Position numbers and translations under genes: made by a program. 64,000 nt of DNA, from the sequence record PQ850631.1; one strand, 5' to 3'. How positions within the stretch are numbered: the stretch's first letter is position 1; each line of letters starts with the position of its first letter. This stretch comes from Escherichia phage VerenaGrendelmeier_Bas101. This document shows positions 789-59,495 of this stretch, piece after piece. Under the pieces are notes generated by a model that was given only the letters and a program-made list of their open reading frames with translations, did not search any database and was not told where the DNA came from.

Positions 789-1709
789 ATGACGATACCA
801 ATCAACACATTCCCTCTATCTGGACAAACTCCAGTCTTGCCTGCGGTGTATGCTAATGGCTTGGCAATTGTCTCAGAATTCACTTCTGATAAAAACTTGA
901 TTGTTCCACTGAGCCCGCCGCTTGCATCAGGGTATAACTCAGTAGGTCAATTCTTTATGATTGGCAATGATGGCGATTCGACCAGCAAGCCTAACCTGAC
1001 ATTGTCTGTGCCTAAGATGAACATCACAGACGTTCAAACTGGCTTGACTGCATCAACAATCACCATTGCTTTTGGTGAAGCAGTGATCATAGGTATGGAG
1101 TCTGGAGGGTCGAAAAACGCTGTCGCAGTCAAAGTTGTGAAAACCAGCGGCAACCAATACACGTTACCAGCGGCAACAGCTTCCGTTCTTGGTGGCGTCA
1201 AAATAGGCACCGGAATAAGCGTAGCAGGTGATGGTACAATCAGCGTCACCCAATACTCATTGCCGATTGCCTCAGCATCTACTTTAGGCGGCGTAAAGGT
1301 CGGTACAACTCTATCAATTGATGGGTCTGGTGTGCTTAATGCAGCAGCAAGTACCGTCCAGAATGCCACTAATAGCGTCAGCAATCCTCCAACAACTTTG
1401 GTCAATCTGGCAACCTTAAACCTTCCTGCAGGGAAATGGCTTGTAACAGCAAGTCAGTTGACTGTCGCGACAGCAGGCGTTCAAGCGAATACCGGAATTA
1501 CAGTCAAATTGTCAACAAGCAATTCAGATATTACGGATGATGCATTTGCCATGTCAGCTGGAATTCGGGCTGCAGGTCGCTTCGGCGGCAACATCCCAAC
1601 AAAAGTAATTACTCTTGCCGCGCCTGGTAATGTGTATTTAAACTATCAGTGCACCGACGCGTTGACATCTACCGTTTACGGACAGATCACCGCAATTAAG
1701 CTGAACTAA
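789..1709 (+). CDS. structural protein with tandem fiber-like repeats
   Basis: GAGG RBS 5 nt upstream of ATG. Internal ~32-aa repeats (PAATASVLGGVKIGTGISVAGDGTISV / PIASASTLGGVKVGTTLSIDGSGVL) resemble fiber-type repeats. Confidence 0.55.
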   Translation: MTIPINTFPLSGQTPVLPAVYANGLAIVSEFTSDKNLIVPLSPPLASGYNSVGQFFMIGNDGDSTSKPNLTLSVPKMNITDVQTGLTASTITIAFGEAVIIGMESGGSKNAVAVKVVKTSGNQYTLPAATASVLGGVKIGTGISVAGDGTISVTQYSLPIASASTLGGVKVGTTLSIDGSGVLNAAASTVQNATNSVSNPPTTLVNLATLNLPAGKWLVTASQLTVATAGVQANTGITVKLSTSNSDITDDAFAMSAGIRAAGRFGGNIPTKVITLAAPGNVYLNYQCTDALTSTVYGQITAIKLN

Positions 1710-1719
1710 AGAGGAAGTT

Positions 1720-1857
1720 ATGCAAAAGATTATTCAGTCACGTTATGTTAAAGTGCGAAATATTAATTGCAACTCTTTGCTTTCTTGGAAATGGGCTGTT
1801 TATGACTCGATGTTGATTGGCGTTTTAGTGGCAGGAGTGCTATTTAATATTCACTGA
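1720..1857 (+). CDS. small hydrophobic protein (45 aa)
   Basis: ATG preceded by GAGGAAG RBS; C-terminal hydrophobic stretch MLIGVLVAGVLF. Below the ORF-track size cut-off. Confidence 0.3.
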   Translation: MQKIIQSRYVKVRNINCNSLLSWKWAVYDSMLIGVLVAGVLFNIH

Positions 1858-1890
1858 ATTCATCGGCAAAGGATTGCCGCGAGTTTTATA

Positions 1891-2160
1891 CGTATAATGA
1901 CGTATCATCCGTATCAAGTAAGTTGTTGTTTTCAAAAGAATCTTACGGATGATACGCGTTGCCGCCGTACCATATAGGAATTCAAATAAATTAATTTAAA
2001 ATTATATATCTAATTTAATTTTATTTTTTTATAAACTCTTATATATGAAAAGTATCCGTATCATCCGTATCATCCGTAGCACACCAGTGATAGCGCGACT
2101 TATACACCGATACGGATAAAAATACGCCTCATTTTATCCGTATCATCCGTATCACACTAA
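1891..2160. repeat. iteron-like region: at least 8 copies of the 9-10-mer TCATCCGTA(TCA), both orientations, flanking an AT-rich tract (1981-2050)
   Basis: Copies at 1905-1916, 1943-1953 (rc), 2052-2078 (three tandem), 2109-2118 (rc), 2135-2154. Shares blocks with 54327-54615. Confidence 0.7.
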
Positions 2161-2211
2161 TAAAGGCGCGGCTATATCGGTTGTTATACATATTCAAACC
2201 ATAATTATTGT

Positions 2212-2240
2212 TTGCCTAAGTTTTTTTCATTAGATATAAT
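2212..2240 (+). promoter_or_regulatory. sigma70-like promoter TTGCCT-17-TATAAT for the structural operon
   Basis: -35 at 2212-2217, 17-bp spacer, -10 at 2235-2240, about 25 nt upstream of the 2264 start. Confidence 0.4.
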
Positions 2241-2263
2241 ACACAATACTTATTTGAGGGTGG

Positions 2264-3685
2264 ATGCGAATGCAAACGGCACGCGAAATTGACAAAAATG
2301 GATTCTTGACGATTATGGGTTGTCCAATTTCGTCATTTGGCATTTTTGATTATTCTGCTGGTCAAGTTGGTCTTGATGGTGATCCGAATCGCATCGTAAA
2401 AGTCTATCGCCCTGAGTCAGCGGTGAAAGACCCCGAAGCGATAGATTCATTCAAAAATATCCCTTTCATCGACAATCACGAAATGCTTTCTGGATTTGAA
2501 GGTGATGAGGATAACACGGCACCCGAAGAGTATGGTGTCGATGGCGTTCTAACTGGCAATGTTTATTATGACAAGCCATGGATGCGCGGCGACCTTAAAG
2601 TGTTCAGCCGTCGTCTTAAGAAGGCCATTGATTCTGGAAAGGTTGACTTGTCTTTGGGCTATGACTGTGAATTCATCATACAGTCTGGAGAGTTTGACGG
2701 GCAGCCGTATGAAGTGGTGCAGACAACTCTTCGCGGCAACCACATTGCTCTCGTGGACGTTGGTCGAGTACCAGGTGCACGGGTGCTGGATGGTCGTTGC
2801 TTTGACCATCTTTGTTTGACGACTGTAACACCATCCAACGAGGATTTAGACATGCCAAAACCGTTAAAAGGTAAAGCGCGTGATAATGCTGTTGAACAGC
2901 TGAAATCACTGATCCCTGCGCTCGAACAATTTCTGAATGAAGAGAGTGCTGAAGCTGCTCATCAGGACGAAGTTGAAGTGAAAGCAGAAGAGAAGGACTC
3001 AACCGAAAATCGTGAAGAAGTAATGGTTGATCCAGAAGTCAAGGCAGAAGCAGAAGAAACCCCAGAAGGTGAAGAGAAGTTTGAAGTTGAAACTGAATCT
3101 CACGCTGACGGCGAACTTCCGCAATTGATCAGCCAAATCGAAGCACTTATTGCAAAACTGAAAGGTGGCGCGGTAGGTGATGAAGAAGAAGTTGAAGCCG
3201 AAGTCAAAGACGAAGAAGAAGTTGAAGTCAAGGCTGAAGATGTATCACCTTGCGACAAAGCTGAAGATGTGGTTAGCGGCCTGCAAAACAGCAACGTAAA
3301 GGGGGCTTCGGTCGAAAAAGATGACAAACCGACAAAAGCGGCGAAAGCGTCGCCAGGTCCAGCAAAAGGGGAACACTCAATGGCATCTGATTCAGCAGTT
3401 GCTGCTTTCTACGCTGATTCTGCTCGTAAGAATAGCCTCTACCAGCGCCTGTCTAAAGTTGTTGGTGCCTTTGATCATGCAACTATGGACTCCAAGTCCG
3501 TAGCGAAATATGGCGCTAAAAAGTTAGGCTTGAAGTGCGTTGATGGTGCTGAGTTTGACGTGGTGGATAATTATCTGCGCGGCGTTGAGCACGGTCAAAA
3601 ACAGCGTGTAGTCGCAAAACAAAAGGCCGCTGCGGATTCTGCAGCAACTGACGAAGCATTTGAAGCTTGGTTGAAAGGGGAATAA
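2264..3685 (+). CDS. capsid maturation protease / scaffolding-like protein (DUF2213-like N-terminal domain, acidic repeat C-terminal half)
   Basis: N-terminal 200 aa resemble phage prohead protease-like domains. C-terminal half is highly acidic with tandem EEEVEAEVKDEEEVEVKAED repeats. An in-frame ATG at 2270 has better RBS spacing. Confidence 0.5.
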   Translation: MRMQTAREIDKNGFLTIMGCPISSFGIFDYSAGQVGLDGDPNRIVKVYRPESAVKDPEAIDSFKNIPFIDNHEMLSGFEGDEDNTAPEEYGVDGVLTGNVYYDKPWMRGDLKVFSRRLKKAIDSGKVDLSLGYDCEFIIQSGEFDGQPYEVVQTTLRGNHIALVDVGRVPGARVLDGRCFDHLCLTTVTPSNEDLDMPKPLKGKARDNAVEQLKSLIPALEQFLNEESAEAAHQDEVEVKAEEKDSTENREEVMVDPEVKAEAEETPEGEEKFEVETESHADGELPQLISQIEALIAKLKGGAVGDEEEVEAEVKDEEEVEVKAEDVSPCDKAEDVVSGLQNSNVKGASVEKDDKPTKAAKASPGPAKGEHSMASDSAVAAFYADSARKNSLYQRLSKVVGAFDHATMDSKSVAKYGAKKLGLKCVDGAEFDVVDNYLRGVEHGQKQRVVAKQKAAADSAATDEAFEAWLKGE

Positions 3686-12570: not shown

Positions 12571-12987
12571 ATGAAGATCACCAACAAACAAACTGGTCGT
12601 ACAGTAGAAATTAAAATCAGCAAAATGACTGCGATGGAAGGCTGGAATATTCAGCGTCGCTTTGTCGAATTTGCAATGTCGAAAGACCCTGCTTTTCGTT
12701 CAGAGTATACGATGGAAGTGTTGAGCTTCGCAAAAGTCGAGCTTGATGTGGGCCAAGAAATCCCATTAAGTACTGGTGCACTAATTGACAACCATCTTGG
12801 TGACTGGGAAAACCTTAAAGAAGTCTTCGAAGCAGTCCTCATGGAGAACGGTATAAACCCAGATACTCACGCCGAGCGTGAAGGCTACTGGGAACAAGCT
12901 GGCGGCGAAATGGCTGCAGCATTCATCGGCGAATCGATGCGATTAATCGCGCCATTCCTCAGCGGCGAGACTCCAAACAAGGGGTAA
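12571..12987 (+). CDS. putative tail assembly chaperone
   Basis: Small acidic protein immediately upstream of tape measure gene. Confidence 0.3.
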   Translation: MKITNKQTGRTVEIKISKMTAMEGWNIQRRFVEFAMSKDPAFRSEYTMEVLSFAKVELDVGQEIPLSTGALIDNHLGDWENLKEVFEAVLMENGINPDTHAEREGYWEQAGGEMAAAFIGESMRLIAPFLSGETPNKG

Positions 12988-12990
12988 ACT

Positions 12991-15171
12991 GTGTCTGACT
13001 CATTAGAAAAATTTGTGCTTCAATATACGGTGGACTTGAAAGAGTCCATCAATCGTCTTGAGCAATTGCAAGATAAGGTTGATCAGACAAACAAAAAGGC
13101 GAAATCCGCTGGCAAAGATTTCTCTGGAGCATTCAAAGATGTTTTTGGCGAGCTAAAGCCGCTTACTGGTGAGCTAGGGTCAATTGACGGAATACTTGCG
13201 CGGCTGACATATCGTTTTGCCGCGCTCGTTCCTGTTGTCGCAGGATTGGCCGTCGTCGTCAAATCCATCGTTGATGTTCGAAAAGAATACGAAGCGCAAA
13301 GAAAGCTTGGTTTTGAAGCCGGACTCTCTCCAATGGGCGTCGAACAACTACAACGACAGTTGAATGAAAGTTCAGGTGGCATCCTTGGCGCACAGGGGTC
13401 GCGCGATTTAATCAGCAAAGCTTCTAATCTGGCATTCAATGCATACACCAACCCCGATGTGATGAACAAGGACAACTTGTTGTTGAACAAGATGGGGACA
13501 AGTCCTTTCAACAGTAACGGCGGCATCAAAGACACGAATCAGCTGCTTGATGAAATTGGAACAAAGCTGAGAAGTGTGAATGAGCAAACCGCTCGTGCTA
13601 TTGGTGCTCTGGCAGGTTTTACCGCCGATGAAGTCCGCGCCCTTCGCGAGCGCAACCAGTCTGTGAAAGAAAGCACACGCATAAGCGATGAGGAAACGGC
13701 AAAGCTGCAGCGCCAACAAGCTGCTCTTGAGACTATACGAAATAGTATGGGGCAAATTCAAGAAGATTGGCGGCGTATTGAACTGGTTATCGGTGAAAAC
13801 GTTATGCCTGCATTCTCGACGCTTGTCAGCAAGACCGCCGATACAGTCGAAGGATTCCAGATGATGTTCCAAAGAATGTCTGACGGATGGAGCGAATTTG
13901 TCGACAATTTCATCGCTGACTTGAAACACCCGTTTGATAAACAGGCGGCTGTTAACGAGCGTCACGAGCGTGCCGTTGATAGATGGATCACGCAGATGGC
14001 CGAAGGCGATGTGAAACGCCAGAGGAACCAGGAGCAAAACGCTGCTGAACAACGCTCTGCACAGGCTCTTTTTACTCGCGATATCAACCTGTTTTCAAGT
14101 GCCGTTTCAACCTTTGCTGGCGTGATTGATGAGCGTCAAGCTTGGGCGGCATGGGCAGGTGAAATCGGGCGCAGCGCAGGGCAATCCGCGATGCCTGGAA
14201 CACCAGCATTGAATACTGGCGCGACCGTAGGGAATAATCTTGGGTCAGGGAATCCGACAGCATATGACTCAATATATGAGGAAGCTTCAAAACGCTATGG
14301 CATACCTGTAGCGATGATGAAGGCTGTAACTGAAGTCGAATCTGGATTCAATCCAAATGCTGTGAGCGGAGCAGGCGCGACTGGTTTGATGCAAATCATG
14401 CCTTCTAACTTCAAGGGTCTTGGAATAACAGATGGTAATGATCCTCGACAAAACATTATGGGCGGCGCTCAACTTTTGAAAGAGTATCTGAACGCCGCCA
14501 ACGGCGATTGGAATCTTGCGCTGACGATGTATCACGGCGGCTACGACCGAAGCGGCTGGGGCAAGAACACACGCGCGTATCCTGGAAAGGTGATGGCCGC
14601 TCTCGCCCGACAATCCAATGGCGAGTATGCCACGACAGCGCCGCAAGGTGCACCAGTTACTCCAGTACTTAGCGGTAGCGGAGCGGAAGCGCCAAAGGGC
14701 CGTTATGCACCAGTACAAGGTCAATCGCGCCAAACGGTGCAATACAGGCAATTGCAAGAAGCCATTGCAGGATACCTGAACGTACCAGTTGAGCAGTTGA
14801 TGCAGGGACAAGTCAACAAAGGTGATATTGACTTTGCTCAAACTTACCTTAAGCTTGGCACGCAAAGGGATTATATTAAAAACATGCAACTGGCTTCAAC
14901 TCCAGGTGTAAGACCGAACATTCAAGCCGAAGCTATGAAAAACGCTCGTCTTGCTGCATTCCAACTTGAAGCATTCCAGAAATACGGCGGCGACCTTTCC
15001 GCGAATAGTCGACCTGGTGGGCGTGATATTACTATGGGTCAGAAAAACGTTGTCATCAACATCAACGGCGCTCAAGACCCACGCAGCACGGCATTCGAAA
15101 CGAAACGAGTGCTTGAACAAGATGATATCAACGACATAAACAACCTTACTGCTACACCTTTGAAGTGGTGA
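12991..15171 (+). CDS. tape measure protein with C-terminal lytic transglycosylase (SLT) domain
   Basis: 726 aa; coiled-coil N-terminal part, hydrophobic segment, SLT signature EVESGFNPNAVSGAGATGLMQIM...YHGGYD. Confidence 0.7.
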   Translation: MSDSLEKFVLQYTVDLKESINRLEQLQDKVDQTNKKAKSAGKDFSGAFKDVFGELKPLTGELGSIDGILARLTYRFAALVPVVAGLAVVVKSIVDVRKEYEAQRKLGFEAGLSPMGVEQLQRQLNESSGGILGAQGSRDLISKASNLAFNAYTNPDVMNKDNLLLNKMGTSPFNSNGGIKDTNQLLDEIGTKLRSVNEQTARAIGALAGFTADEVRALRERNQSVKESTRISDEETAKLQRQQAALETIRNSMGQIQEDWRRIELVIGENVMPAFSTLVSKTADTVEGFQMMFQRMSDGWSEFVDNFIADLKHPFDKQAAVNERHERAVDRWITQMAEGDVKRQRNQEQNAAEQRSAQALFTRDINLFSSAVSTFAGVIDERQAWAAWAGEIGRSAGQSAMPGTPALNTGATVGNNLGSGNPTAYDSIYEEASKRYGIPVAMMKAVTEVESGFNPNAVSGAGATGLMQIMPSNFKGLGITDGNDPRQNIMGGAQLLKEYLNAANGDWNLALTMYHGGYDRSGWGKNTRAYPGKVMAALARQSNGEYATTAPQGAPVTPVLSGSGAEAPKGRYAPVQGQSRQTVQYRQLQEAIAGYLNVPVEQLMQGQVNKGDIDFAQTYLKLGTQRDYIKNMQLASTPGVRPNIQAEAMKNARLAAFQLEAFQKYGGDLSANSRPGGRDITMGQKNVVININGAQDPRSTAFETKRVLEQDDINDINNLTATPLKW

Positions 15172-34818: not shown

Positions 34819-35502
34819 TTATTTACCGAATGGAATATCAGTACCAGACATAAAGCGCCATGCGCCCGTAATTAAGATATGGCGAATGAAGTCAGCAATT
34901 ACTTGCGGCTCAGTCTCCAATCCGTTCATCAATGCCTTTTTCTGGTATTCAGCAGCATACTCAGGAGTCCAGCCGCGAGTCGCGCAAACAGCATCTTCAA
35001 TCTGTTTGGACATGCCAGTACCACGTAGCTTGTTAGGACTAATAGAAAATACCGTGATCCCGTATTTAGGCGTAAGCTCGTGAGCCATCTGCTTGCTAAT
35101 CATAAGCGCAGCGGCCTTGGAAGCATTATAACACAAGCTGGACGTCATAGGAATATGCGCAGCGTTGGAAACGATATTGATCACAAAACCTTTGTTGTCG
35201 ATAAGACTTTTCAGCGCGGCTTGAGTCGTGTTGACGAAAGAGAAGGCGTTGGTGTGCATAACGCGATTGAACTCTTCGTAGTTAACATCTTCAAACCAGT
35301 TGTTGGAGTTGACGCCAGCACAGTTGATCAAGCCTTCTACATCATATGGGCTTAAAATTTCTTTCATCTGTTTCGCGTCGCGGACGTCATATCCGTATGC
35401 TGAATCGATTCCAAGCACGTTATGACCGTAAGCGCCAAGGGTGTCAAAAATAGATTTACCAAGACCGGAATTGGAACCTGTTACAACAATTACTTTTTTC
35501 AT
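34819..35502 (-). CDS. short-chain dehydrogenase/reductase (SDR)
   Basis: Cofactor motif VTGSNSGLGKS and catalytic YNASK. Confidence 0.7.
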   Translation of the reverse strand: MKKVIVVTGSNSGLGKSIFDTLGAYGHNVLGIDSAYGYDVRDAKQMKEILSPYDVEGLINCAGVNSNNWFEDVNYEEFNRVMHTNAFSFVNTTQAALKSLIDNKGFVINIVSNAAHIPMTSSLCYNASKAAALMISKQMAHELTPKYGITVFSISPNKLRGTGMSKQIEDAVCATRGWTPEYAAEYQKKALMNGLETEPQVIADFIRHILITGAWRFMSGTDIPFGK

Positions 35503-54039: not shown

Positions 54040-54290
54040 TTGCCTGTGGTATGTGAGGATTTATTATCGGATAAAGCGATTGATTTGTGCAAATCTATTA
54101 GAGGGTCATGGGTAGTGAGGATTGTGACGTGAATTTTGTGTCTTGAATATGTGTGCGAATCTGGAAGATTATTGTACTGTGGTGCTGTGGGATTGTAGAG
54201 GGAATCACTAGGAATTGGAGCGTGTACCGTGGTGTGTGGTCCTGTAGGCTGCGCCGTCTATGGGATTGTCGCTTGAAATTAAAAAGGAGA
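54040..54290. repeat. non-coding GT-rich tract with GGGATTGT / GAGGATTGT repeats
   Basis: Strong G+T skew on plus strand; no ORF; repeats near 54118, 54192, 54262. Confidence 0.5.
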
Positions 54291-54326
54291 TATAGTTAGC
54301 TGGCTAACCTTACGCATAGAATTTAA

Positions 54327-54615
54327 GCGTATAATGACGTAAGATTTGGACCTATCCGTAGTTCACTCCACACACTTCTATGGTGCGCCGCGACTGGGTT
54401 CAGTGGTACATCTTACGGATGATACGGATGATACGCGTCGCCGCTATACTTTATACAACTTTGAAAAAAACAATTAACTCCATTTTGAATTAATTTAAAT
54501 TAATTTTTTTCTACATCCTCATACTTATACTAAACTTATATTTATACGTATTATCCGTAAGATATAAGTAAAAACAAAGACTTGCGGCAATACGGATGAT
54601 ACGTCACGATACGCT
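54327..54615. repeat. second iteron-like region homologous to 1891-2160
   Basis: Shared blocks GCGTATAATGACGTA, ATCTTACGGATGATACG...GCCGC, AT-rich AATTAATTTAAA tract, TATCCGTA copies. Confidence 0.65.
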
Positions 54616-54778
54616 TCAACCAGCCAGCAGCGGCTAAGTCATTGATTTGCATAACAAGCGACGAAAGGGATGGATTTCTTTTATACGTATCAAACAGTAC
54701 ACCACGCACCACGGTCCGTTATCCATCCAGCACTATGATTTGTGTACGTTTATAGCCATAATGAACATCAATCTGCAC

Positions 54779-54807
54779 TTGAATATAATGTCCATCCATT
54801 GTATAAT
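54779..54807 (+). promoter_or_regulatory. sigma70-like promoter TTGAAT-17-TATAAT
   Basis: -35 at 54779-54784, -10 at 54802-54807, upstream of the TerS-like ORF. Confidence 0.35.
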
Positions 54808-54817
54808 TCACACTATT

Positions 54818-56298
54818 AATTTGCACTATGGGATTTTGCACTATGAGTCAAGATTATGTAGCGATGCCTGAAGACTTTGAAGACCCGCGATTCGCAGAGC
54901 ACAATCAGGCTTTATTCGATGAGTTCATTGACCTTGTTATTCAGGGCCATGACATGCGCGCAGCTTTTGCACTAGTATTTGGAATGGAAGTTGCAACGGA
55001 TAACTACACTGGCCAGCGAATCCTTTGCACGCAACGCAATCCATACTACAAGATGCGCTTCAAAAAGCGTATGGAAGAGATGCCACTCAAGGATTTGTGG
55101 AGCGTAAAAGGTGCAATTCACAATTTGGTCAAGCTTGTGCGTGATCCAGAAGTCGCGGCGTCAGCCAAGCTTAATGCTATTCGTGAACTGAATATCATCT
55201 ATGGCATCACGATGATTGATGAAAACGGCAATAGTAAAATGGGCCGTTCTATGGACGATTTCTACAAGGATTTTGGAGAGGCGGCCAAAGAAGGCGAGCA
55301 ATTCTCCCGCCACTAGCCAATTTGCACTATAAAACGGCCCTAGAACACATTGTCTCCACTTCTAGGGCCATCGGTAATACGACGGGGAAGGTTGCAACCG
55401 TAAACGCGTTAGAAAGTGTATTATTATAAGTCATCTTTTAGTCACCTTACGTAACAATTTACGACCTTCAACCGTCCAATCGAACGACTCCACCAGCAGA
55501 TTCGCACTATAACCTAAGATGATGCGCCCTTTCTCGTTATCGACCCGCCAACAAGTCTCGAATAGCATTCGATTTGCACTATTAACTATCGCCGCAACGC
55601 GCGTTGGGTAAACGCAATTTGCACTATGGTCGTAAAGGGATAAGGTGCGACCACTTCCGATGGACAATGTAGCGATGAGAATAAGCGTATTCATAAGCCA
55701 CCAATTTGCACTATGAAAAGCGACCCCGAAGGGCCGCCATTCGATTAGATAATCTGGAATGTGTAGGACTTGTTGCCGAACTCAAAGTTCAAGCGTCCAG
55801 CTTCTTTAAGCTTCATGCGGAAGCGAATGTGCTTACTATCCGGTAAGCCCAGCGCGGCGAACGCCACGCGGACCGATTTGAACTCGCCTACACCCTCGAC
55901 CATAACGCCGTTACGCGTGAGACGCTTTTGCGCCACTTCCTTGTTATCCCAACTTTTTGCAATACCTTCGCTATTCGAACGGCGATGGGAAGGAGTTCCA
56001 TTTTGCACTACGCAATTTGCACTATCGTTTAGGCCGCTTTTAACGAAGGCTTCATACTCTTCGTCGGTCATCGCGTCGAGTTCTTCCTGGGTCGGCTCGG
56101 CCTTTTTAACGACCGCACGCGCCTTATGCGTTTTTACATCGCTGGACACTTCCTCGCGCGGCTTCGCGTCGGGAATGGGCGATTCGTTGGACGGCTCATC
56201 GAGCGCGTTTAAGGACTCGATTAACGCGATTACGCGAGTCTCGGCGGTACGGCGGTCCGCAAATTTCTTAATCGGCTTCGAACCGGAATTTGCATTAT
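54818..56298 (+). repeat. strand-specific array of about 10 copies of the 12-mer AATTTGCACTAT (and one-mismatch variants)
   Basis: Copies at 54818, 54833, 55319, 55499, 55571, 55616, 55703, 55999, 56014, 56287, all in the same orientation, irregular spacing, crossing coding and non-coding DNA. Confidence 0.75.
54828..55316 (+). CDS. terminase small subunit-like DNA-binding protein (orphan; start ambiguous 54828/54843)
   Basis: HTH-like GHDMRAAFALVFG followed by LKDLWSVKGAIHNLVKLVRDPEVAASAKLNAIRELNIIYGIT; no large terminase gene adjacent. Confidence 0.35.
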   Translation: MGFCTMSQDYVAMPEDFEDPRFAEHNQALFDEFIDLVIQGHDMRAAFALVFGMEVATDNYTGQRILCTQRNPYYKMRFKKRMEEMPLKDLWSVKGAIHNLVKLVRDPEVAASAKLNAIRELNIIYGITMIDENGNSKMGRSMDDFYKDFGEAAKEGEQFSRH

Positions 56299-56371
56299 AA
56301 AATGCAACGAGGTCGGCGGTCTTAGTTGCGATAACGTCGCCGCTAGTCGAGAAACGATTTAAGCTAACCAT
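55745..56371 (-). CDS. hypothetical protein (208 aa)
   Basis: Long ORF with codon usage distinct from the structural genes (AAG, CGC, TCG-rich); contains embedded 12-mer copies. Confidence 0.4.
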   Translation of the reverse strand: MVSLNRFSTSGDVIATKTADLVAFYNANSGSKPIKKFADRRTAETRVIALIESLNALDEPSNESPIPDAKPREEVSSDVKTHKARAVVKKAEPTQEELDAMTDEEYEAFVKSGLNDSANCVVQNGTPSHRRSNSEGIAKSWDNKEVAQKRLTRNGVMVEGVGEFKSVRVAFAALGLPDSKHIRFRMKLKEAGRLNFEFGNKSYTFQII

Positions 56372-56451
56372 AATGAACTCCTATTTGTTAGGGCGCTAGG
56401 CGCGAAAGAATTTTATTAAAGCGCCGCGCGCGACGCTCTAAAAATCCTCTC

Positions 56452-56766
56452 TTACTCTTCGTCGTCTTCGATTAATTCGAGGGCGAAGGCGTAAGCTTTG
56501 CTATCGTAATTAACTAAAACGGCGAGTTCGAACTCGTTAATAAACGCCGTTTTACCGCATAAATTTAATTCCGCATCGACTTCGAAGAATCCGTTTTCGT
56601 CGCGCTCTAAGCGAGAAGCAGCGAGTTGCTCGATTACCGTCGCGTCGTTAATTTCTTCGCCTAAGCGAACGCCGGAGAATTTCGCGAGAATTTCGCCGTA
56701 AGTAAGCGTAACGCCCTGGACTTCGGCGGTTGCGTTTTCGAGGGTAAAGCGGGTAACGATAGCCAT
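56452..56766 (-). CDS. small acidic protein (104 aa)
   Basis: Strongly acidic, ends ...LIEDDEE. Confidence 0.45.
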   Translation of the reverse strand: MAIVTRFTLENATAEVQGVTLTYGEILAKFSGVRLGEEINDATVIEQLAASRLERDENGFFEVDAELNLCGKTAFINEFELAVLVNYDSKAYAFALELIEDDEE

Positions 56767-56906
56767 AATAAACTCCTAGTTGGGAGAGGCGTTAACGACC
56801 TATTCGTTAACTCATCCCGTCCCGATATGAGTACATTATAATATAGTGTAGAAAAAAGTAAAGCACTTTTTCGATAAAAATGCGATAAATTATTTTATCT
56901 TTTTTC

Positions 56907-56934
56907 TTTACTTCTTCGTACACTCGCGTATACT
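56907..56934 (+). promoter_or_regulatory. sigma70-like promoter TTTACT-16-TATACT with conserved GTACACT spacer and TTGTTTATATCGAGA leader
   Basis: Near-identical architecture to 57305-57333. Confidence 0.45.
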
Positions 56935-56988
56935 TGTTTATATCGAGACGGGCGATGGCCCTTCCTTCTACTAGCATCGGGAGTTTTA

Positions 56989-57293
56989 TTATGACCACTT
57001 TAATCTCTTCTATCCTTACTTACGACGAAGACCGTTTAACCGTTCGCTCTCTTATCGCCGCCGTTAACGCGGAACTAGAATCCACCATTATTAAGGTCCG
57101 CGCGGTCGCTTTCGTCGGCCTTTCCTTCGACGATATTAAGTACGCCGAACGTAGCGCCATCCGCTTCGCGAAGACCGACGACGAAGCCGTTACCCTTATC
57201 GAGACGGTTACGCCGCGCGGCGAAGCGTTAATTATCGTCGAGTATATCGACGTAGAAGGCGATAAGGCTTATAAATATTTTATTGCAGAATAA
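56989..57293 (+). CDS. small acidic protein (101 aa)
   Basis: ATG at 56989; acidic. Confidence 0.45.
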
Positions 57294-57304
57294 CGAAAAA
57301 GTGC

Positions 57305-57333
57305 TTTACTTCTTCGTACACTAAGACTATAAT
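57305..57333 (+). promoter_or_regulatory. sigma70-like promoter TTTACT-17-TATAAT, paralog of 56907-56934
   Basis: Shares CTTTACTTCTTCGTACACT and the GTTTTATATCGAGAG leader. Confidence 0.45.
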
Positions 57334-57400
57334 GTTTTATATCGAGAGGGGATGAGGTAGCGAATAGGTCGCTACCCGCCCGACCAACTAGGAGATTATT

Positions 57401-57691
57401 ATGATTACTTTAGCCGCTATCCGTTCCGCTCGCGTCGAGACTTCCGAAAACTCTAACGTATTTGGCGAAACCTTAGAGAGCGTTTATCTCTCTAACGTAG
57501 ACGCAACTATCGAACCTATTTATGAGCCGATCAACTTCCTCGACCTTTACAAGTATCGCGACGAGGACATCGTATCATCCCGCGTAACGATTAACGGCTT
57601 CGTCTATACGATTACCGAAATCGGCGGCGAATATCTCGCTGTACCGCAACTCGGCGGCGAAGTAACTTATTTTAAAATTGTCTCCTTATAA
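57401..57691 (+). CDS. small acidic protein (96 aa)
   Basis: GGAG RBS, ATG at 57401. Confidence 0.45.
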   Translation: MITLAAIRSARVETSENSNVFGETLESVYLSNVDATIEPIYEPINFLDLYKYRDEDIVSSRVTINGFVYTITEIGGEYLAVPQLGGEVTYFKIVSL

Positions 57692-57710
57692 TATCCTTCC
57701 GTTACTAATA

Positions 57711-57736
57711 GGCCGCGCTTAGTCGCGGCTTTTCTT
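57711..57736 (+). terminator. rho-independent terminator
   Basis: GCCGCG...CGCGGC stem followed by TTTTCTT. Confidence 0.6.
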
Positions 57737-57854
57737 CGTCCCTATCTCGATGCGCTTCTCCGCGAAAACTCCTTTATCCTTCCCTTCGTCGTCGCATAAT
57801 CTTCGTCGAGATGCGCCTTAGTTCGCATAACAGGTATTACGTTAAATGGAGAAC

Positions 57855-57931
57855 ATCGCGTAAGTCCTTGTTTTATATAGACACCTATATCGGACCGTTA
57901 GGGCGGGTCGCGTAAGTCGTTGTTTTATAAA
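57855..57931 (+). repeat. direct repeat pair TCGCGTAAGTC(C/G)TTGTTTTATA
   Basis: Copies at 57855-57879 and 57907-57931; shares TTGTTTTATA with the leaders of the two promoters upstream. Confidence 0.55.
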
Positions 57932-58055
57932 GGCGCAAAACTTTCCCTTCGTTCCGAACTAAAACGAGGAATATGCCGACCCTTCGCCCGAAAATAGTAC
58001 GCATGCGAAATCACATGCATCTCGAATAATCCCCACCGATATTATCCTACACGCA

Positions 58056-58118
58056 ATCATTCGCTTTCGAATCATTATGCTTCATATTATTATGCGTCGA
58101 ATCATTCGCTTTCGAATT
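58056..58118 (+). repeat. direct repeat pair AATCATTCGCTTTCGAAT
   Basis: Copies at 58056-58073 and 58101-58118, each with a TTCGAA palindrome. Confidence 0.55.
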
Positions 58119-58205
58119 GTAACGCTGGAAACTGTAACGGCGATTGATTATTGCGTTCGTGTGGTTTTTAGGGCATGGGTCTTTTGGTGCGTTTTGGTGC
58201 TTGAT

Positions 58206-58318
58206 GGAATTTGCGGTACACTAATCAAAATACGACACATTTGGTCCACTAACTTTTCAAAGAAAAAGTCCTAGACAGTACCGTACTATTTTGTACCCAC
58301 AGGAATTTGCAGTACACT
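58206..58318 (+). repeat. direct repeat pair GGAATTTGC(G/A)GTACACT
   Basis: Copies at 58206-58222 and 58302-58318; combines the AATTTGC core with the GTACACT promoter-spacer motif. Confidence 0.5.
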
Positions 58319-58388
58319 CCTGCGCGGCAGGCAAAATAAAGGGCCGCCCTAAGCGACCCACGATTCATGGTTAAATCAGCAACACCCA

Positions 58389-58769
58389 CTATTCACTCTT
58401 ATGGGCATCACCAAATCCATCAGCAATCTGGCTGATCAACGACTCAATGGACACAGTTTTACCAATTGATCGAGCGGTTATGGCGAGCATATTATCAATC
58501 AAACCACGATTGGCTTCACATGTTCCAGGCTTTAATTCATCTTTAGGACCACCAAAAAGCTGGTCGCGCAGACTTTCAAGAGAACGCTCAATATTTTCCA
58601 ACTTCTCTTCTAAATCGGATTGGCGACGTAAAACCCACGTCAAGTCACGGTTGCCAACTTCCAATCCATCAGAATAGCAAGGTGGAGCGTCAATTTTGAT
58701 GCTGGAACCAAAAGCAGTGCCGCTGCCTTTAGTATAAGTATGGCTCATAGAATCATTTTTATTTGACAT
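58389..58769 (-). CDS. hypothetical protein (126 aa)
   Basis: Start set at internal ATG with AAAGG RBS; the longer ORF-track N-terminus reads through a terminator hairpin. Confidence 0.4.
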   Translation of the reverse strand: MSNKNDSMSHTYTKGSGTAFGSSIKIDAPPCYSDGLEVGNRDLTWVLRRQSDLEEKLENIERSLESLRDQLFGGPKDELKPGTCEANRGLIDNMLAITARSIGKTVSIESLISQIADGFGDAHKSE

Positions 58770-58814
58770 ATCATTACCTTTAATATTTGGGTGATTAACA
58801 ATAACTATAATAAA

Positions 58815-58829
58815 GCCGCATAGCGCGGC
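58815..58829 (-). terminator. small GC hairpin plus U-tract (minus strand)
   Basis: GCCGC...GCGGC; minus-strand transcript followed by UUUAUUAU. Confidence 0.35.
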
Positions 58830-58831
58830 AT

Positions 58832-59092
58832 TCAAATCGATTTATTAATTGTGACGATTGGATTCATCAATCGATACCAATTGCGCAGGGTCGCCGGATA
58901 CCGTTGAGCCGATGATACCCATCTGAGAGAAAATTCTGAATAAACTTCTTTCCAGTACTTGCGCGCAGCTTTCTGGGCTTGCCCTTTGCGCTTATAACTT
59001 TTGCCTTGAAAGATGAAGCGGTCTTTTGGAGCGTAATACTCCACCACACCTTCCAGCCATTGTAAGAATGCTACTGATTCATTTTGATTCAT
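58832..59092 (-). CDS. hypothetical protein (86 aa)
   Basis: GAGGT RBS upstream of ATG on minus strand. Confidence 0.4.
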   Translation of the reverse strand: MNQNESVAFLQWLEGVVEYYAPKDRFIFQGKSYKRKGQAQKAARKYWKEVYSEFSLRWVSSAQRYPATLRNWYRLMNPIVTINKSI

Positions 59093-59099
59093 GTTAACC

Positions 59100-59495
59100 T
59101 CAATATTTTAATAAGAAAGCACCCAACCAACTTTCCTCGACCTCGCGGCCAGTAGCCACACGGTCGGTCTTGGCTATGGGTCTGGATTCGCCGCAGGGCA
59201 ACCCGTCCTGTAGATGTGTACTATTGCCAATTCTCACCATGACCTTTCCATCAGGGTCGATATAAGCGCGACAACCCATGATTTCGAGTCGTTGTAGACA
59301 CTGGCGAATCGTTTTCAGCTTCTCACCGGACCGGATAGAGCGCGGTCGCGACCGCTGACCGTTTTTATTCACTGTACGCTTGACGACCGGAATCTCATTG
59401 GTGCGTTGCGGCTTGGGTCGGTAATAAGCCTCTTCGCCAGGAGTCGCACCTGGCGTTAATTCGCGCTTGAGAGCCTTTTCAATATCGATGATCAT
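59100..59495 (-). CDS. hypothetical basic protein (131 aa)
   Basis: Arg/Lys-rich ORF. Confidence 0.4.
   Translation of the reverse strand: MIIDIEKALKRELTPGATPGEEAYYRPKPQRTNEIPVVKRTVNKNGQRSRPRSIRSGEKLKTIRQCLQRLEIMGCRAYIDPDGKVMVRIGNSTHLQDGLPCGESRPIAKTDRVATGREVEESWLGAFLLKY

What the first reader, a model, noticed from the sequence alone, without database searches (positions are those of the whole stretch)
1891..2160. Iteron-plus-AT-rich region upstream of the late structural promoter, duplicated at 54327-54615
A 400-bp intergenic region contains at least eight copies of TCATCCGTA(TCA) in both orientations (three in perfect tandem at 2052-2078) flanking a ~70-bp tract of almost pure A/T, followed by a TTGCCT-17-TATAAT promoter. 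The blocks GTATAATGACGTA and ATCTTACGGATGATACGCG..GCCGC recur in the same order at 54327-54615 upstream of another plus-strand promoter. Iterons beside an AT-rich unwinding element is the classic architecture of a replication origin, but duplication upstream of two promoters equally fits binding sites for a phage-encoded late activator.
Basis: seen in the sequence. Interest (0 to 1): 0.65.

Follow-up and report, generated by a model that had tools for sequence, protein, structure and literature searches.

The report
Paired packaging-site-like repeat elements in phage
The repeat-plus-AT-rich block is real and is one of two matching copies in this E. coli phage: the other copy is where the packaged genome starts, next to the small terminase gene, so the pair most likely belongs to DNA packaging rather than to a replication origin or a late-gene activator.

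Summary
The window is a Wifcevirus, an E. coli myovirus distantly related to Pseudomonas PB1.

- **Copy A:** 1891-2160 holds eight ATCCGTA cores (9-bp unit CGTATCATC) in a two-fold symmetric layout around an 83-bp, 89% AT centre. A sigma-70-like promoter for the prohead protease/capsid operon follows.
- **Copy B:** 54327-54615 is a true paralogue.
- **Genome end:** two independent Wifcevirus records start at window 54482, inside B's AT centre and within 5 bp of its dyad centre. One of them has a PhageTerm-predicted 3.7-kb terminal repeat. Pantoea phage Kyle does the same.
- **Pbunavirus:** published JG024 long-read starts, proposed as the pac site, map to the same place.
- **Neighbouring gene:** the gene after B is the small terminase (PDB 7UXE, E=7e-34).
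- **Conservation:** the A/B pair is kept in five lineages with lineage-specific repeat units. A and B of one genome match each other better than their counterparts in other lineages.

B is therefore the packaging-initiation and left-end site, built like P1 or SPP1 pac. A is a strongly conserved, apparently uncut paralogue, probably bound by the same protein. Its role is unproven. The origin and late-activator readings are weakly supported but not excluded for A.

The parts
1864..1889 (+). Terminator-like hairpin (CGGCAAAGGATTGCCG plus a T-run) that ends the portal/MuF/head-fibre operon, just before element A
   Evidence: hairpin kept in relatives
1891..1918 (+). Element A, outer left array: three tandem forward units (CGTATAATGA, CGTATCATC, CGTATCAAG)
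1918..1932 (+). Second motif GTAAGTTGTTGTTTT. It also occurs in B (54571-54585, minus strand) and twice before the right terminal-repeat boundary
   Evidence: 4 copies against 0.08 expected
1940..1965 (-). Element A, inner left array: reverse-orientation units (TTACGGATGATACGCG) followed by GCCGC. The window has exactly one 9-bp unit fewer than five related genomes
1968..2050 (.). Element A AT-rich centre (83 bp, 89% AT, the most AT-rich stretch of the window). Dyad centre is near 2006
2052..2083 (+). Element A, inner right array: forward units at 9-bp spacing (ATCCGTA at 2054, 2063, 2072)
2106..2129 (-). Element A, reverse units (GATACGGAT, ATACGC)
2132..2156 (+). Element A, distal forward units (TTATCCGTATCATCCGTATCACA)
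2212..2240 (+). Sigma-70-like promoter TTGCCT-17-TATAAT for the prohead protease/scaffold/major capsid operon. Conserved as TTGCYT-17-TATAAT in relatives
2264..3685 (+). Prohead (head maturation) protease gene, Pfam PF09979
54327..54365 (+). Element B, outer left array (CGTATAATGA, CGTAAGATT, ATCCGTAG)
54407..54446 (-). Element B, inner left array: reverse units (TTACGGATGATACGGATGATACGCG) followed by GCCGC. This is the left arm of the 23-nt dyad
54447..54545 (.). Element B AT-rich centre (83% AT). It contains the left physical end of the packaged genome, AATTAACTCC|ATTTT, between 54481 and 54482
54544..54566 (+). Element B, inner right array (forward units). This is the right arm of the dyad
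54571..54585 (-). Second motif copy in B (GCAAGTCTTTGTTTT, one mismatch)
54589..54617 (-). Element B, reverse units (ATACGGATGATACGTCACGATACGC)
54779..54807 (+). Sigma-70-like promoter TTGAAT-17-TATAAT upstream of the small terminase gene
54843..55316 (+). Small terminase (TerS) gene
   Evidence: PDB 7UXE, E217 TerS, E=7e-34; Mansfield annotation
54482..58184 (.). Direct terminal repeat as mapped from Mansfield (3,673 bp by PhageTerm). The WFC record implies a right end near 58265
   Evidence: PMC6753283; PMC6563267

Best explanation
Regions A (1891-2160) and B (54327-54615) are two paralogous copies of a roughly 300-bp cis-element. Each has arrays of a lineage-specific 9-bp unit (here CGTATCATC) in two nested inverted shells around a 70-100-bp AT-rich centre, followed by a sigma-70-like promoter.

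**Copy B** is the packaging-initiation site. It lies directly upstream of the small terminase gene. The terminase cut that makes the left end of the mature genome falls at the dyad centre of its AT tract (shown). By analogy with P1 pac, SPP1 pac and lambda cosB, the flanking repeats are the sites where the packaging recognition protein assembles symmetrically, and the bendable AT centre is presented to the large terminase for cleavage. The recognition protein is most likely TerS, possibly with a partner (inferred).

**Copy A**, the finding itself, is a strongly conserved paralogue in front of the prohead protease/scaffold/capsid operon. It co-evolves with B, so it is most likely bound by the same protein (inferred). 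No genome end has been reported there. The most likely role is a second, normally uncut loading platform. It would either couple terminase occupancy to the capsid operon or pair with B (speculative).
For: **Genome end inside B**
- Records WFC and Mansfield both begin at window 54482, inside B's AT centre. WFC has a terminal repeat of about 3.7 kb, and Mansfield has a 3,673-bp repeat predicted by PhageTerm (PMC6563267, PMC6753283).
- The terminus lies within 5 bp of the centre of the 23-nt dyad 54407-54429/54544-54566.

**Same result in other lineages**
- Pantoea phage Kyle carries a 3,603-bp terminal repeat and starts inside the AT centre of its own B element.
- The Serratia KKP 3709 record also starts there.
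- In Pbunavirus JG024, 36 of 161 long reads start at 59,376 +/-5, the authors' putative pac site, with a matching pac fragment (PMC10913387). That position is the centre of the B homologue. The PS44 record starts one base away. Ab27-29 showed reads with a fixed termination (PMC4482731), and the Ab27 record starts about 616 bp upstream of TerS.

**Neighbouring gene**
- The gene after B is TerS.

**Conservation of the pair**
- The A/B pair, with the same layout, occurs in Wifcevirus, a 70%-identity metagenomic relative, Kylevirus, Myosmarvirus and Pbunavirus. The repeat units differ: CGTATCATC; ACGTATCA; ATATCCGAA/GGTTAT; TTACTTTTCG; AATTACC.
- A and B of one genome share 47-61 8-mers, against 7-34 between lineages.
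- From the AT centre to the protease start codon, A is 99-100% identical in six Wifcevirus genomes whose wider alignments to the window are only 91-96% identical.
- Luteibacter phage Pluto lacks both elements.

**Link from A to the genome ends**
- A second motif, GTAAGTNNTTGTTTT, occurs in A, in B, and twice in the non-coding region before the right terminal-repeat boundary. That is 4 copies against 0.08 expected.
Against: - No terminus or read pile-up has been reported at A in any record. None of the 28 related records starts there.
- Binding of TerS to the repeats is untested. A review reports that E217 TerS showed no appreciable DNA binding in vitro (PMC9611059).
- In the window, the cut-site sequence CTCC|ATTTT of B is not present in A, so A may be functionally different.
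- Iterons plus an AT-rich tract next to a promoter is also the classic anatomy of an origin.
- The distance from A's last array to the -35 box is about 56-63 bp in most lineages examined and about 79 bp in KKP 3709 (read by eye). This hints at a transcriptional role.
- How the starts of the Serratia KKP 3709 and PS44 records were chosen is not documented here.
Confidence: 0.55

Rival explanations
1. A and B are replication origins. A phage initiator, for example the VapE/D5-like primase-helicase, binds the 9-bp iterons on both sides and melts the AT-rich centre. Two distant iteron regions would work like SPP1 oriL/oriR or P4 ori/crr. The left genome end at B would then be a coincidence, or a consequence of replication-coupled duplication of the terminal repeat.
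For: - Iteron arrays in inverted orientation flank the two most AT-rich tracts of the window.
- Strong promoters lie nearby, which could activate an origin by transcription.
- The phage encodes a VapE-like primase-helicase.
- Lineage-specific repeat units imply a phage-encoded binder.
- The precedents (SPP1, P4) are from my own knowledge.
Against: - Both elements sit in the head and packaging modules, far from the replication genes.
- Cumulative GC skew has no minimum at A and its maximum at B. Its local minimum is near 42 kb, in the replication gene cluster. PMC12390725 reports the same for Pbunavirus.
- There are no DnaA boxes in either element.
- B coincides with packaged-genome ends or the pac start in three genera.
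- A shares a motif with the right terminal-repeat boundary region.
Confidence: 0.17
2. The repeats are operator or upstream-activating sites for a phage transcription factor that co-regulates the TerS promoter and the capsid-operon promoter. The AT tract acts as an UP-like or bending element.
For: - Both elements lie upstream of conserved sigma-70-like promoters reading the same way.
- Both are preceded by a terminator.
- The spacing from A's last array to the -35 box is about 56-63 bp in most lineages examined, read by eye.
Against: - There are only two clusters genome-wide. The TerL, portal and tail operons have none.
- The arrays do not overlap the core promoters, and in B they lie about 160 bp upstream.
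- This reading does not explain the symmetric architecture about a 70-100-bp AT centre.
- It does not explain why the genome end falls at the dyad centre of B.
Confidence: 0.2
3. A is a second, low-frequency cleavage or nicking site for the terminase, that is, an alternative pac site or a localized single-strand interruption.
For: - In Kyle, the AT centre of A is nearly identical to that of B through the cut position.
- The centres are also paralogous in KKP 3709 and E217.
Against: - PhageTerm and coverage analyses reported a single terminal repeat only (PMC6753283, PMC6563267).
- JG024 long reads gave one start cluster (PMC10913387).
- In the window, A lacks the CTCC|ATTTT sequence found at the cut in B.
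Confidence: 0.08

Closest known systems
Phage P1 pac site (PacA/PacB; hexamer repeats on both sides of a central cleavage region) - from my own knowledge
   Same: Clusters of a short repeated element lie on both sides of a central region roughly 100 bp long where the terminase cuts. The site is associated with the small-subunit gene. Bending of the centre is thought to help.
   Different: - The units here are 9 bp, lineage-specific and in nested inverted shells.
- There are no Dam sites.
- The cut gives the fixed left end of a 3.7-kb direct terminal repeat in Wifcevirus rather than a headful series.
- A second conserved copy exists elsewhere in the genome.
SPP1 pac (pacL-pacC-pacR upstream of and into gene 1) and lambda cosB (R3-I1-R2-R1)
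   Same: Several small-terminase binding boxes flank or adjoin the cut. The site sits with the promoter and 5' end of the small terminase gene. Inverted sites are brought together by a bent AT-rich spacer.
   Different: - Binding by TerS is not shown here, and E217 TerS did not bind DNA in vitro (PMC9611059).
- The cut is at the dyad centre.
- There is a duplicate element 16-20 kb away.
T4 gp16 pac-like sequences in genes 16 and 19 (Black's synapsis model); herpesvirus 'a' sequence with an internal copy - from my own knowledge
   Same: In both cases a packaging-recognition sequence is present at a second, internal genomic position. In T4 it is thought to pair with the first copy.
   Different: - The T4 sites are short and lie inside genes.
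- No synapsis is shown here.
- The herpesvirus internal copy is inverted and mediates segment inversion.
Two-site iteron origins: SPP1 oriL/oriR (G38P), P4 ori/crr (alpha protein) - from my own knowledge
   Same: Two distant non-coding regions carry the same short repeats next to AT-rich DNA.
   Different: - Those sites are bound by replication initiators and lie in or near replication genes.
- Here both copies are in the packaging and head modules, and one holds the genome end.

Membership tests
Terminase recognition/cleavage site (pac/cos type) | Contains or abuts the end of the packaged genome, or the packaging-series start | tested here: met
   - **Copy B:** met. The WFC and Mansfield records start at 54482. 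Kyle does the same. The JG024 putative pac site at 59,376 maps to the homologous centre (PMC10913387).
- **Copy A:** no end is known, and no record starts there.
Terminase recognition/cleavage site (pac/cos type) | Linked to the small terminase gene | tested here: met
   B lies 230-500 bp upstream of TerS, and the same holds in every lineage examined. A does not meet this: it lies upstream of the prohead protease.
Terminase recognition/cleavage site (pac/cos type) | Repeated recognition elements flank the cut | tested here: met
   The terminus lies within 5 bp of the dyad centre in B.
Terminase recognition/cleavage site (pac/cos type) | Specific binding by TerS and requirement for packaging | not testable with these tools
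   Needs EMSA or footprinting and genetics. The literature reports no appreciable DNA binding by E217 TerS in vitro (PMC9611059).
Iteron-type replication origin | Iterons adjacent to an AT-rich unwinding element | tested here: met
   This is anatomy only.
Iteron-type replication origin | Linked to an initiator or replication genes; host DnaA boxes | tested here: not met
   Neighbouring genes are portal, MuF, head fibre, protease and TerS. There is no TTATNCACA in either element. The only exact box in the window is at 35253.
Iteron-type replication origin | Strand-composition inflection (cumulative GC-skew minimum) | tested here: not met
   The skew rises straight through A and peaks at 54349, next to B. 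It follows gene orientation. This is weak evidence in phages.
Iteron-type replication origin | Origin activity (marker frequency, autonomous replication) | not testable with these tools
   An experiment is needed.
Activator/operator sites of a late-gene regulon | Present at the set of co-regulated promoters | tested here: not met
   There are only two clusters in the window plus the missing 4.7 kb of the genome, read from Bas100. The TerL, portal and tail operons lack them.
Activator/operator sites of a late-gene regulon | Fixed position relative to the core promoter | tested here: inconclusive
   In A, the last array lies about 56-63 bp from the -35 box in most lineages. In B, the last array is about 160 bp away, with a single unit about 85 bp away.
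Structured non-coding RNA | Match to a curated RNA family | tested here: not met
   No Rfam hit at gathering score anywhere in the window.
Mobile repeat (MITE-like) | Variable insertion positions between genomes | tested here: not met
   Both copies keep the same gene neighbours from Wifcevirus to Pbunavirus.

The most novel reading that the evidence does not exclude
PB1-like phages (Pbunavirus, Wifcevirus, Kylevirus, Myosmarvirus) use a two-site packaging control system. The same recognition protein assembles on the pac or left-end element upstream of TerS and on a co-evolving twin upstream of the capsid operon. The twin would be functionally required, for example for synapsis with pac, for licensing the initiation cut, for coupling capsid-gene expression to terminase, or as a site of regulated nicking. 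This would be a layer of packaging control not described for any model phage.
Probability: 0.25. Interest if true: 0.8.

Novelty: new variant of a known kind. Interest (0 to 1): 0.6.

Why it matters
- **An open question becomes testable.** Pbunavirus and Wifcevirus phages are used or proposed for therapy and are being rebuilt synthetically. Their packaging signal is unknown, their genome ends have been disputed, and E217 TerS showed no DNA binding in vitro. This analysis gives a concrete, conserved candidate substrate with defined 9-bp units, a dyad and a cut position. It can be used directly in binding, cleavage and structural work, and to choose safe insertion sites and genome ends for phage engineering.
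- **The second copy is unexplained.** A co-evolving twin sits in front of the capsid operon and has been kept across at least four named genera. It has no clear counterpart in model phages.

Tried and rejected
- **IMG/VR scan with CGTATCATCCGTAT:** mostly chance single hits. Only the WFC, FEC19 and ECML-117 copies were relevant.
- **Pfam and PHROGs on TerS and the terminal-repeat proteins:** no informative families. TerS was identified only by the PDB sequence search.
- **Supplementary TSS tables of the 14-1 transcriptome paper:** not held, so promoter use in the Pbunavirus homologues could not be checked.
- **Homologue search for the 208-aa neighbour of TerS:** the 120 hits listed were near-identical sequences. 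A five-lineage alignment gave no PDB hit and only a weak NUMOD-like Pfam hint. Structure prediction was therefore not attempted.
- **PS44 as a Pbunavirus with a terminal repeat:** rejected. The record looks rearranged, and only its start position was used.
- **Host DnaA boxes as an explanation for TTATCCGYA-like units:** rejected. There is no exact TTATNCACA box in either element, and the unit changes between phage lineages.
- **IHF consensus scan:** one match, at 54635, outside the centre.
- **9- and 10-mers shared between A and the right-boundary region:** at chance level. Only the 13-specified-base motif is significant.

Full report
**What the window is.** Megablast of 1500-3500 finds 28 phage records at 95-99% identity, all of genus Wifcevirus: E. 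coli and Shigella myoviruses such as WFC, WFH, ECML-117, FEC19, Mansfield and Bas98-100. They are distant relatives of Pseudomonas PB1-like phages (Pbunavirus; 10.1101/2024.09.12.612763). The window covers all but about 4.7 kb of the genome of about 68.5 kb.

**Checking the observation.**
- ATCCGTA occurs 16 times against 4.9 expected. No shuffle reaches 16, and 13 of the 16 lie in the two regions.
- Region A (1891-2160) has eight cores in both orientations, three of them at 9-bp spacing (2054, 2063, 2072).
- The true unit is the 9-mer CGTATCATC.
- The A centre, 1968-2050, is 89% AT. The B centre, 54447-54545, is 83% AT. They are the two most AT-rich 80-bp windows in the 64 kb.
- The pairwise alignment shows that A and B are paralogous along their whole length, not only in the two quoted blocks.
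- Both are nested inverted repeats around the AT centre. The arms are 1944-1956/2057-2069 in A and 54407-54429/54544-54566 in B.

**Surroundings.**
- A lies between a terminator-like hairpin (1864-1879) and the prohead protease/scaffold/major capsid operon. The hairpin closes the portal/MuF/head-fibre operon.
- B lies upstream of window 54843-55316. That gene matches the solved small terminase of Pseudomonas phage E217 (PDB 7UXE, E=7e-34) and is annotated as TerS in Mansfield.

**The key result: a genome end inside B.**
- Record WFC is linear, 72,472 bp, with a terminal repeat of about 3.7 kb (PMC6563267). Comparing its two ends gives 3,784 bp.
- Record Mansfield was opened at a 3,673-bp direct terminal repeat predicted by PhageTerm (PMC6753283).
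- Both records begin at the same base, window 54482. The preceding sequence ends ...AATTAACTCC.
- That point is inside B's AT centre and within 5 bp of the centre of its 23-nt dyad.
- The cut sequence is invariant in five Wifcevirus genomes, although the half of B outside the repeat exists in two diverged forms.
- The right boundary maps to about 58184 from Mansfield, or about 58265 from WFC. It has no CGTATCATC units.

**Relatives.** Homologues of TerS and the protease lead to more distant genomes.
- **Layout.** In all of them the same layout is seen upstream of the protease and, where that region could be read, upstream of TerS: reverse arrays, then 70-100 bp of AT-rich DNA, then forward, reverse and forward arrays, then TTGCYT-17-TATAAT.
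- **Repeat units.** The unit differs by lineage:

| Lineage | Repeat unit |
|---|---|
| 70%-identity metagenomic phage | ACGTATCA, plus some ATCCGTATC |
| Two further metagenomic phages | TTATCCGCAA; TTATCCGCT |
| A TerS-side contig | TATCCGT |
| Pantoea phage Kyle | ATATCCGAA and GGTTAT |
| Myosmarvirus (TropicalSun, KKP 3709) | TTACTTTTCG |
| Pbunavirus E217 | AATTACC |

- **E217 annotation.** In E217 the B copy is annotated as a protein gene ('gene 77', 58488-59108), which is probably spurious.
- **Concerted evolution.** A and B of one genome share 47-61 canonical 8-mers, against 7-34 between lineages. The two copies therefore evolve in concert, as expected if one phage-encoded protein reads both.
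- **Selection on A.** Within Wifcevirus, A is 99-100% identical from the AT centre to the protease start, in genomes whose wider alignments to the window are only 91-96% identical. The only length change in the arrays is exactly one 9-bp unit.
- **Joint absence.** Luteibacter phage Pluto, a more distant relative, lacks both elements.

**Genome ends in the relatives.**
- The Kyle record carries a 3,603-bp terminal repeat, and its first base lies inside the AT centre of its own B element.
- The KKP 3709 record also starts in the centre of its B element. How that start was chosen is not documented here.
- For Pbunavirus JG024, Ipoutcha et al. found 36 of 161 long reads starting at 59,376 +/-5, together with a matching restriction 'pac fragment', and proposed this as the pac site (PMC10913387). 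That coordinate lies between the left and right arrays of the B homologue.
- Record PS44 starts one base from it.
- So in three genera with different packaging outcomes (long terminal repeat, or headful), the initiation cut maps to the centre of element B.

**Interpretation.**
- B is the packaging-initiation site. Its anatomy matches what is known for P1 pac, SPP1 pac and lambda cosB (my own knowledge): short repeats on both sides of a central, bendable cut region, next to the small terminase gene and its promoter.
A review states that E217 TerS showed no appreciable DNA binding in vitro (PMC9611059). The HK97 work shows that the way TerS reads DNA is still debated (PMC11331095).
- A conserved 208-aa protein encoded next to TerS in all lineages is another candidate. 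It has two conserved domains and only a weak NUMOD-like hint.

**Copy A.**
- A is the object of the finding, and its role is not established. No record starts there, and published end analyses report one repeat or one pac site.
- A is nevertheless under strong selection and co-evolves with B.
- In Wifcevirus, A also shares a second motif, GTAAGTNNTTGTTTT, with B and with the non-coding region before the right terminal-repeat boundary. That is 4 copies against 0.08 expected. This ties A to the system that makes the genome ends.
- In Kyle, the A centre is almost identical to the B centre through the cut position. In the window it is not.
- I therefore favour A as a second, normally uncut platform for the same recognition protein, with a regulatory or pairing role. 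I keep occasional cleavage or nicking as a minor rival.

**Rivals.**
- **Origin reading.** It fits the anatomy and has two-site precedents (SPP1 oriL/oriR, P4 ori/crr; my own knowledge). Against it: the elements are far from the replication genes, there are no DnaA boxes, and the cumulative GC skew only tracks gene orientation, with no minimum at A and a maximum at B. The Pbunavirus skew minima also lie in the replication module (PMC12390725).
- **Late-activator reading.** It fits the promoter proximity and the roughly constant spacing between A's last array and the -35 box. Against it: only two clusters exist in the genome, the arrays do not overlap the core promoters, and the reading explains neither the symmetric design nor the terminus at the dyad centre.
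- **Other.** There is no Rfam family match. The elements are not mobile, because their gene neighbours are constant across genera.

**Novelty.**
- The terminal repeat of Wifcevirus and a putative pac coordinate in JG024 are published.
- In the searchable literature I found no description of the repeat architecture, of its conservation across genera, or of the second copy upstream of the capsid operon.
- I rate it a new variant of a known kind: a pac-type site with a conserved twin.

Noticed in passing
window 57720-58330: The non-coding region of about 600 bp that holds the right terminal-repeat boundary (about 58184 from Mansfield, about 58265 from WFC) has its own repeats. These are CGCGTAAGTCNTTGTTTTATA twice (57857-57877 and 57909-57929), (T)CGAATCATT three times (58055-58106), and GTAACG twice. 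Kyle's right end also carries four AATCATT/AATGATT copies (L138 6030-6157). This is probably a separate right-end (termination) signal.
   Followed up: partly
window 55745-56371 (minus strand): A 208-aa protein of unknown function (PHROG 4730) is encoded next to TerS inside the terminal repeat. It is conserved in the metagenomic relatives, Kyle and E217. It has two conserved domains joined by an acidic linker. One homologue gives a weak hit to the I-HmuI NUMOD-like DNA-binding domain (E=0.039). It is a candidate accessory DNA-binding protein for the repeats.
   Followed up: partly
E217 MF490240 58488-59108 ('gene 77'); Mansfield 125-283 (CPT_Mansfield_001); window 54551-54712 and 54647-54871: Open reading frames annotated or listed inside element B overlap the repeat arrays, the AT centre and the promoter. 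They are probably not genes.
   Followed up: partly
window 54818-54848: TTTGCACTATG is repeated twice between the TerS promoter and the start codon. The second copy contains the start ATG. The 69%-identity relative has GCACTATG three times at the same place (L128 9972-10003). This may be a translational or operator element of TerS.
   Followed up: no
window 54280-54410 versus WFC/Bas100 (L005, L003): The half of element B that lies outside the terminal repeat exists in two diverged sequence forms within the genus, a window/Mansfield type and a WFC/Bas100 type. The half inside the repeat is conserved. This suggests a recombination breakpoint at the genome end.
   Followed up: partly
all lineages: e.g. 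window 1961-1965, 2168-2172, 54441-54445, 54580-54584; E217 12665-13050: GCCGC/GCGGC pentamers, often as GCGGCRAYA, recur at similar positions between the arrays in every lineage even though the 9-bp units differ. They may be a second, conserved recognition element.
   Followed up: no
whole window: The terminal repeat (54482-58184) contains the TerS gene itself, so virion DNA carries two copies of TerS. The TerS promoter lies about 300 bp from the left end of the packaged DNA. TerL lies about 14 kb downstream of TerS, outside the window.
   Followed up: no
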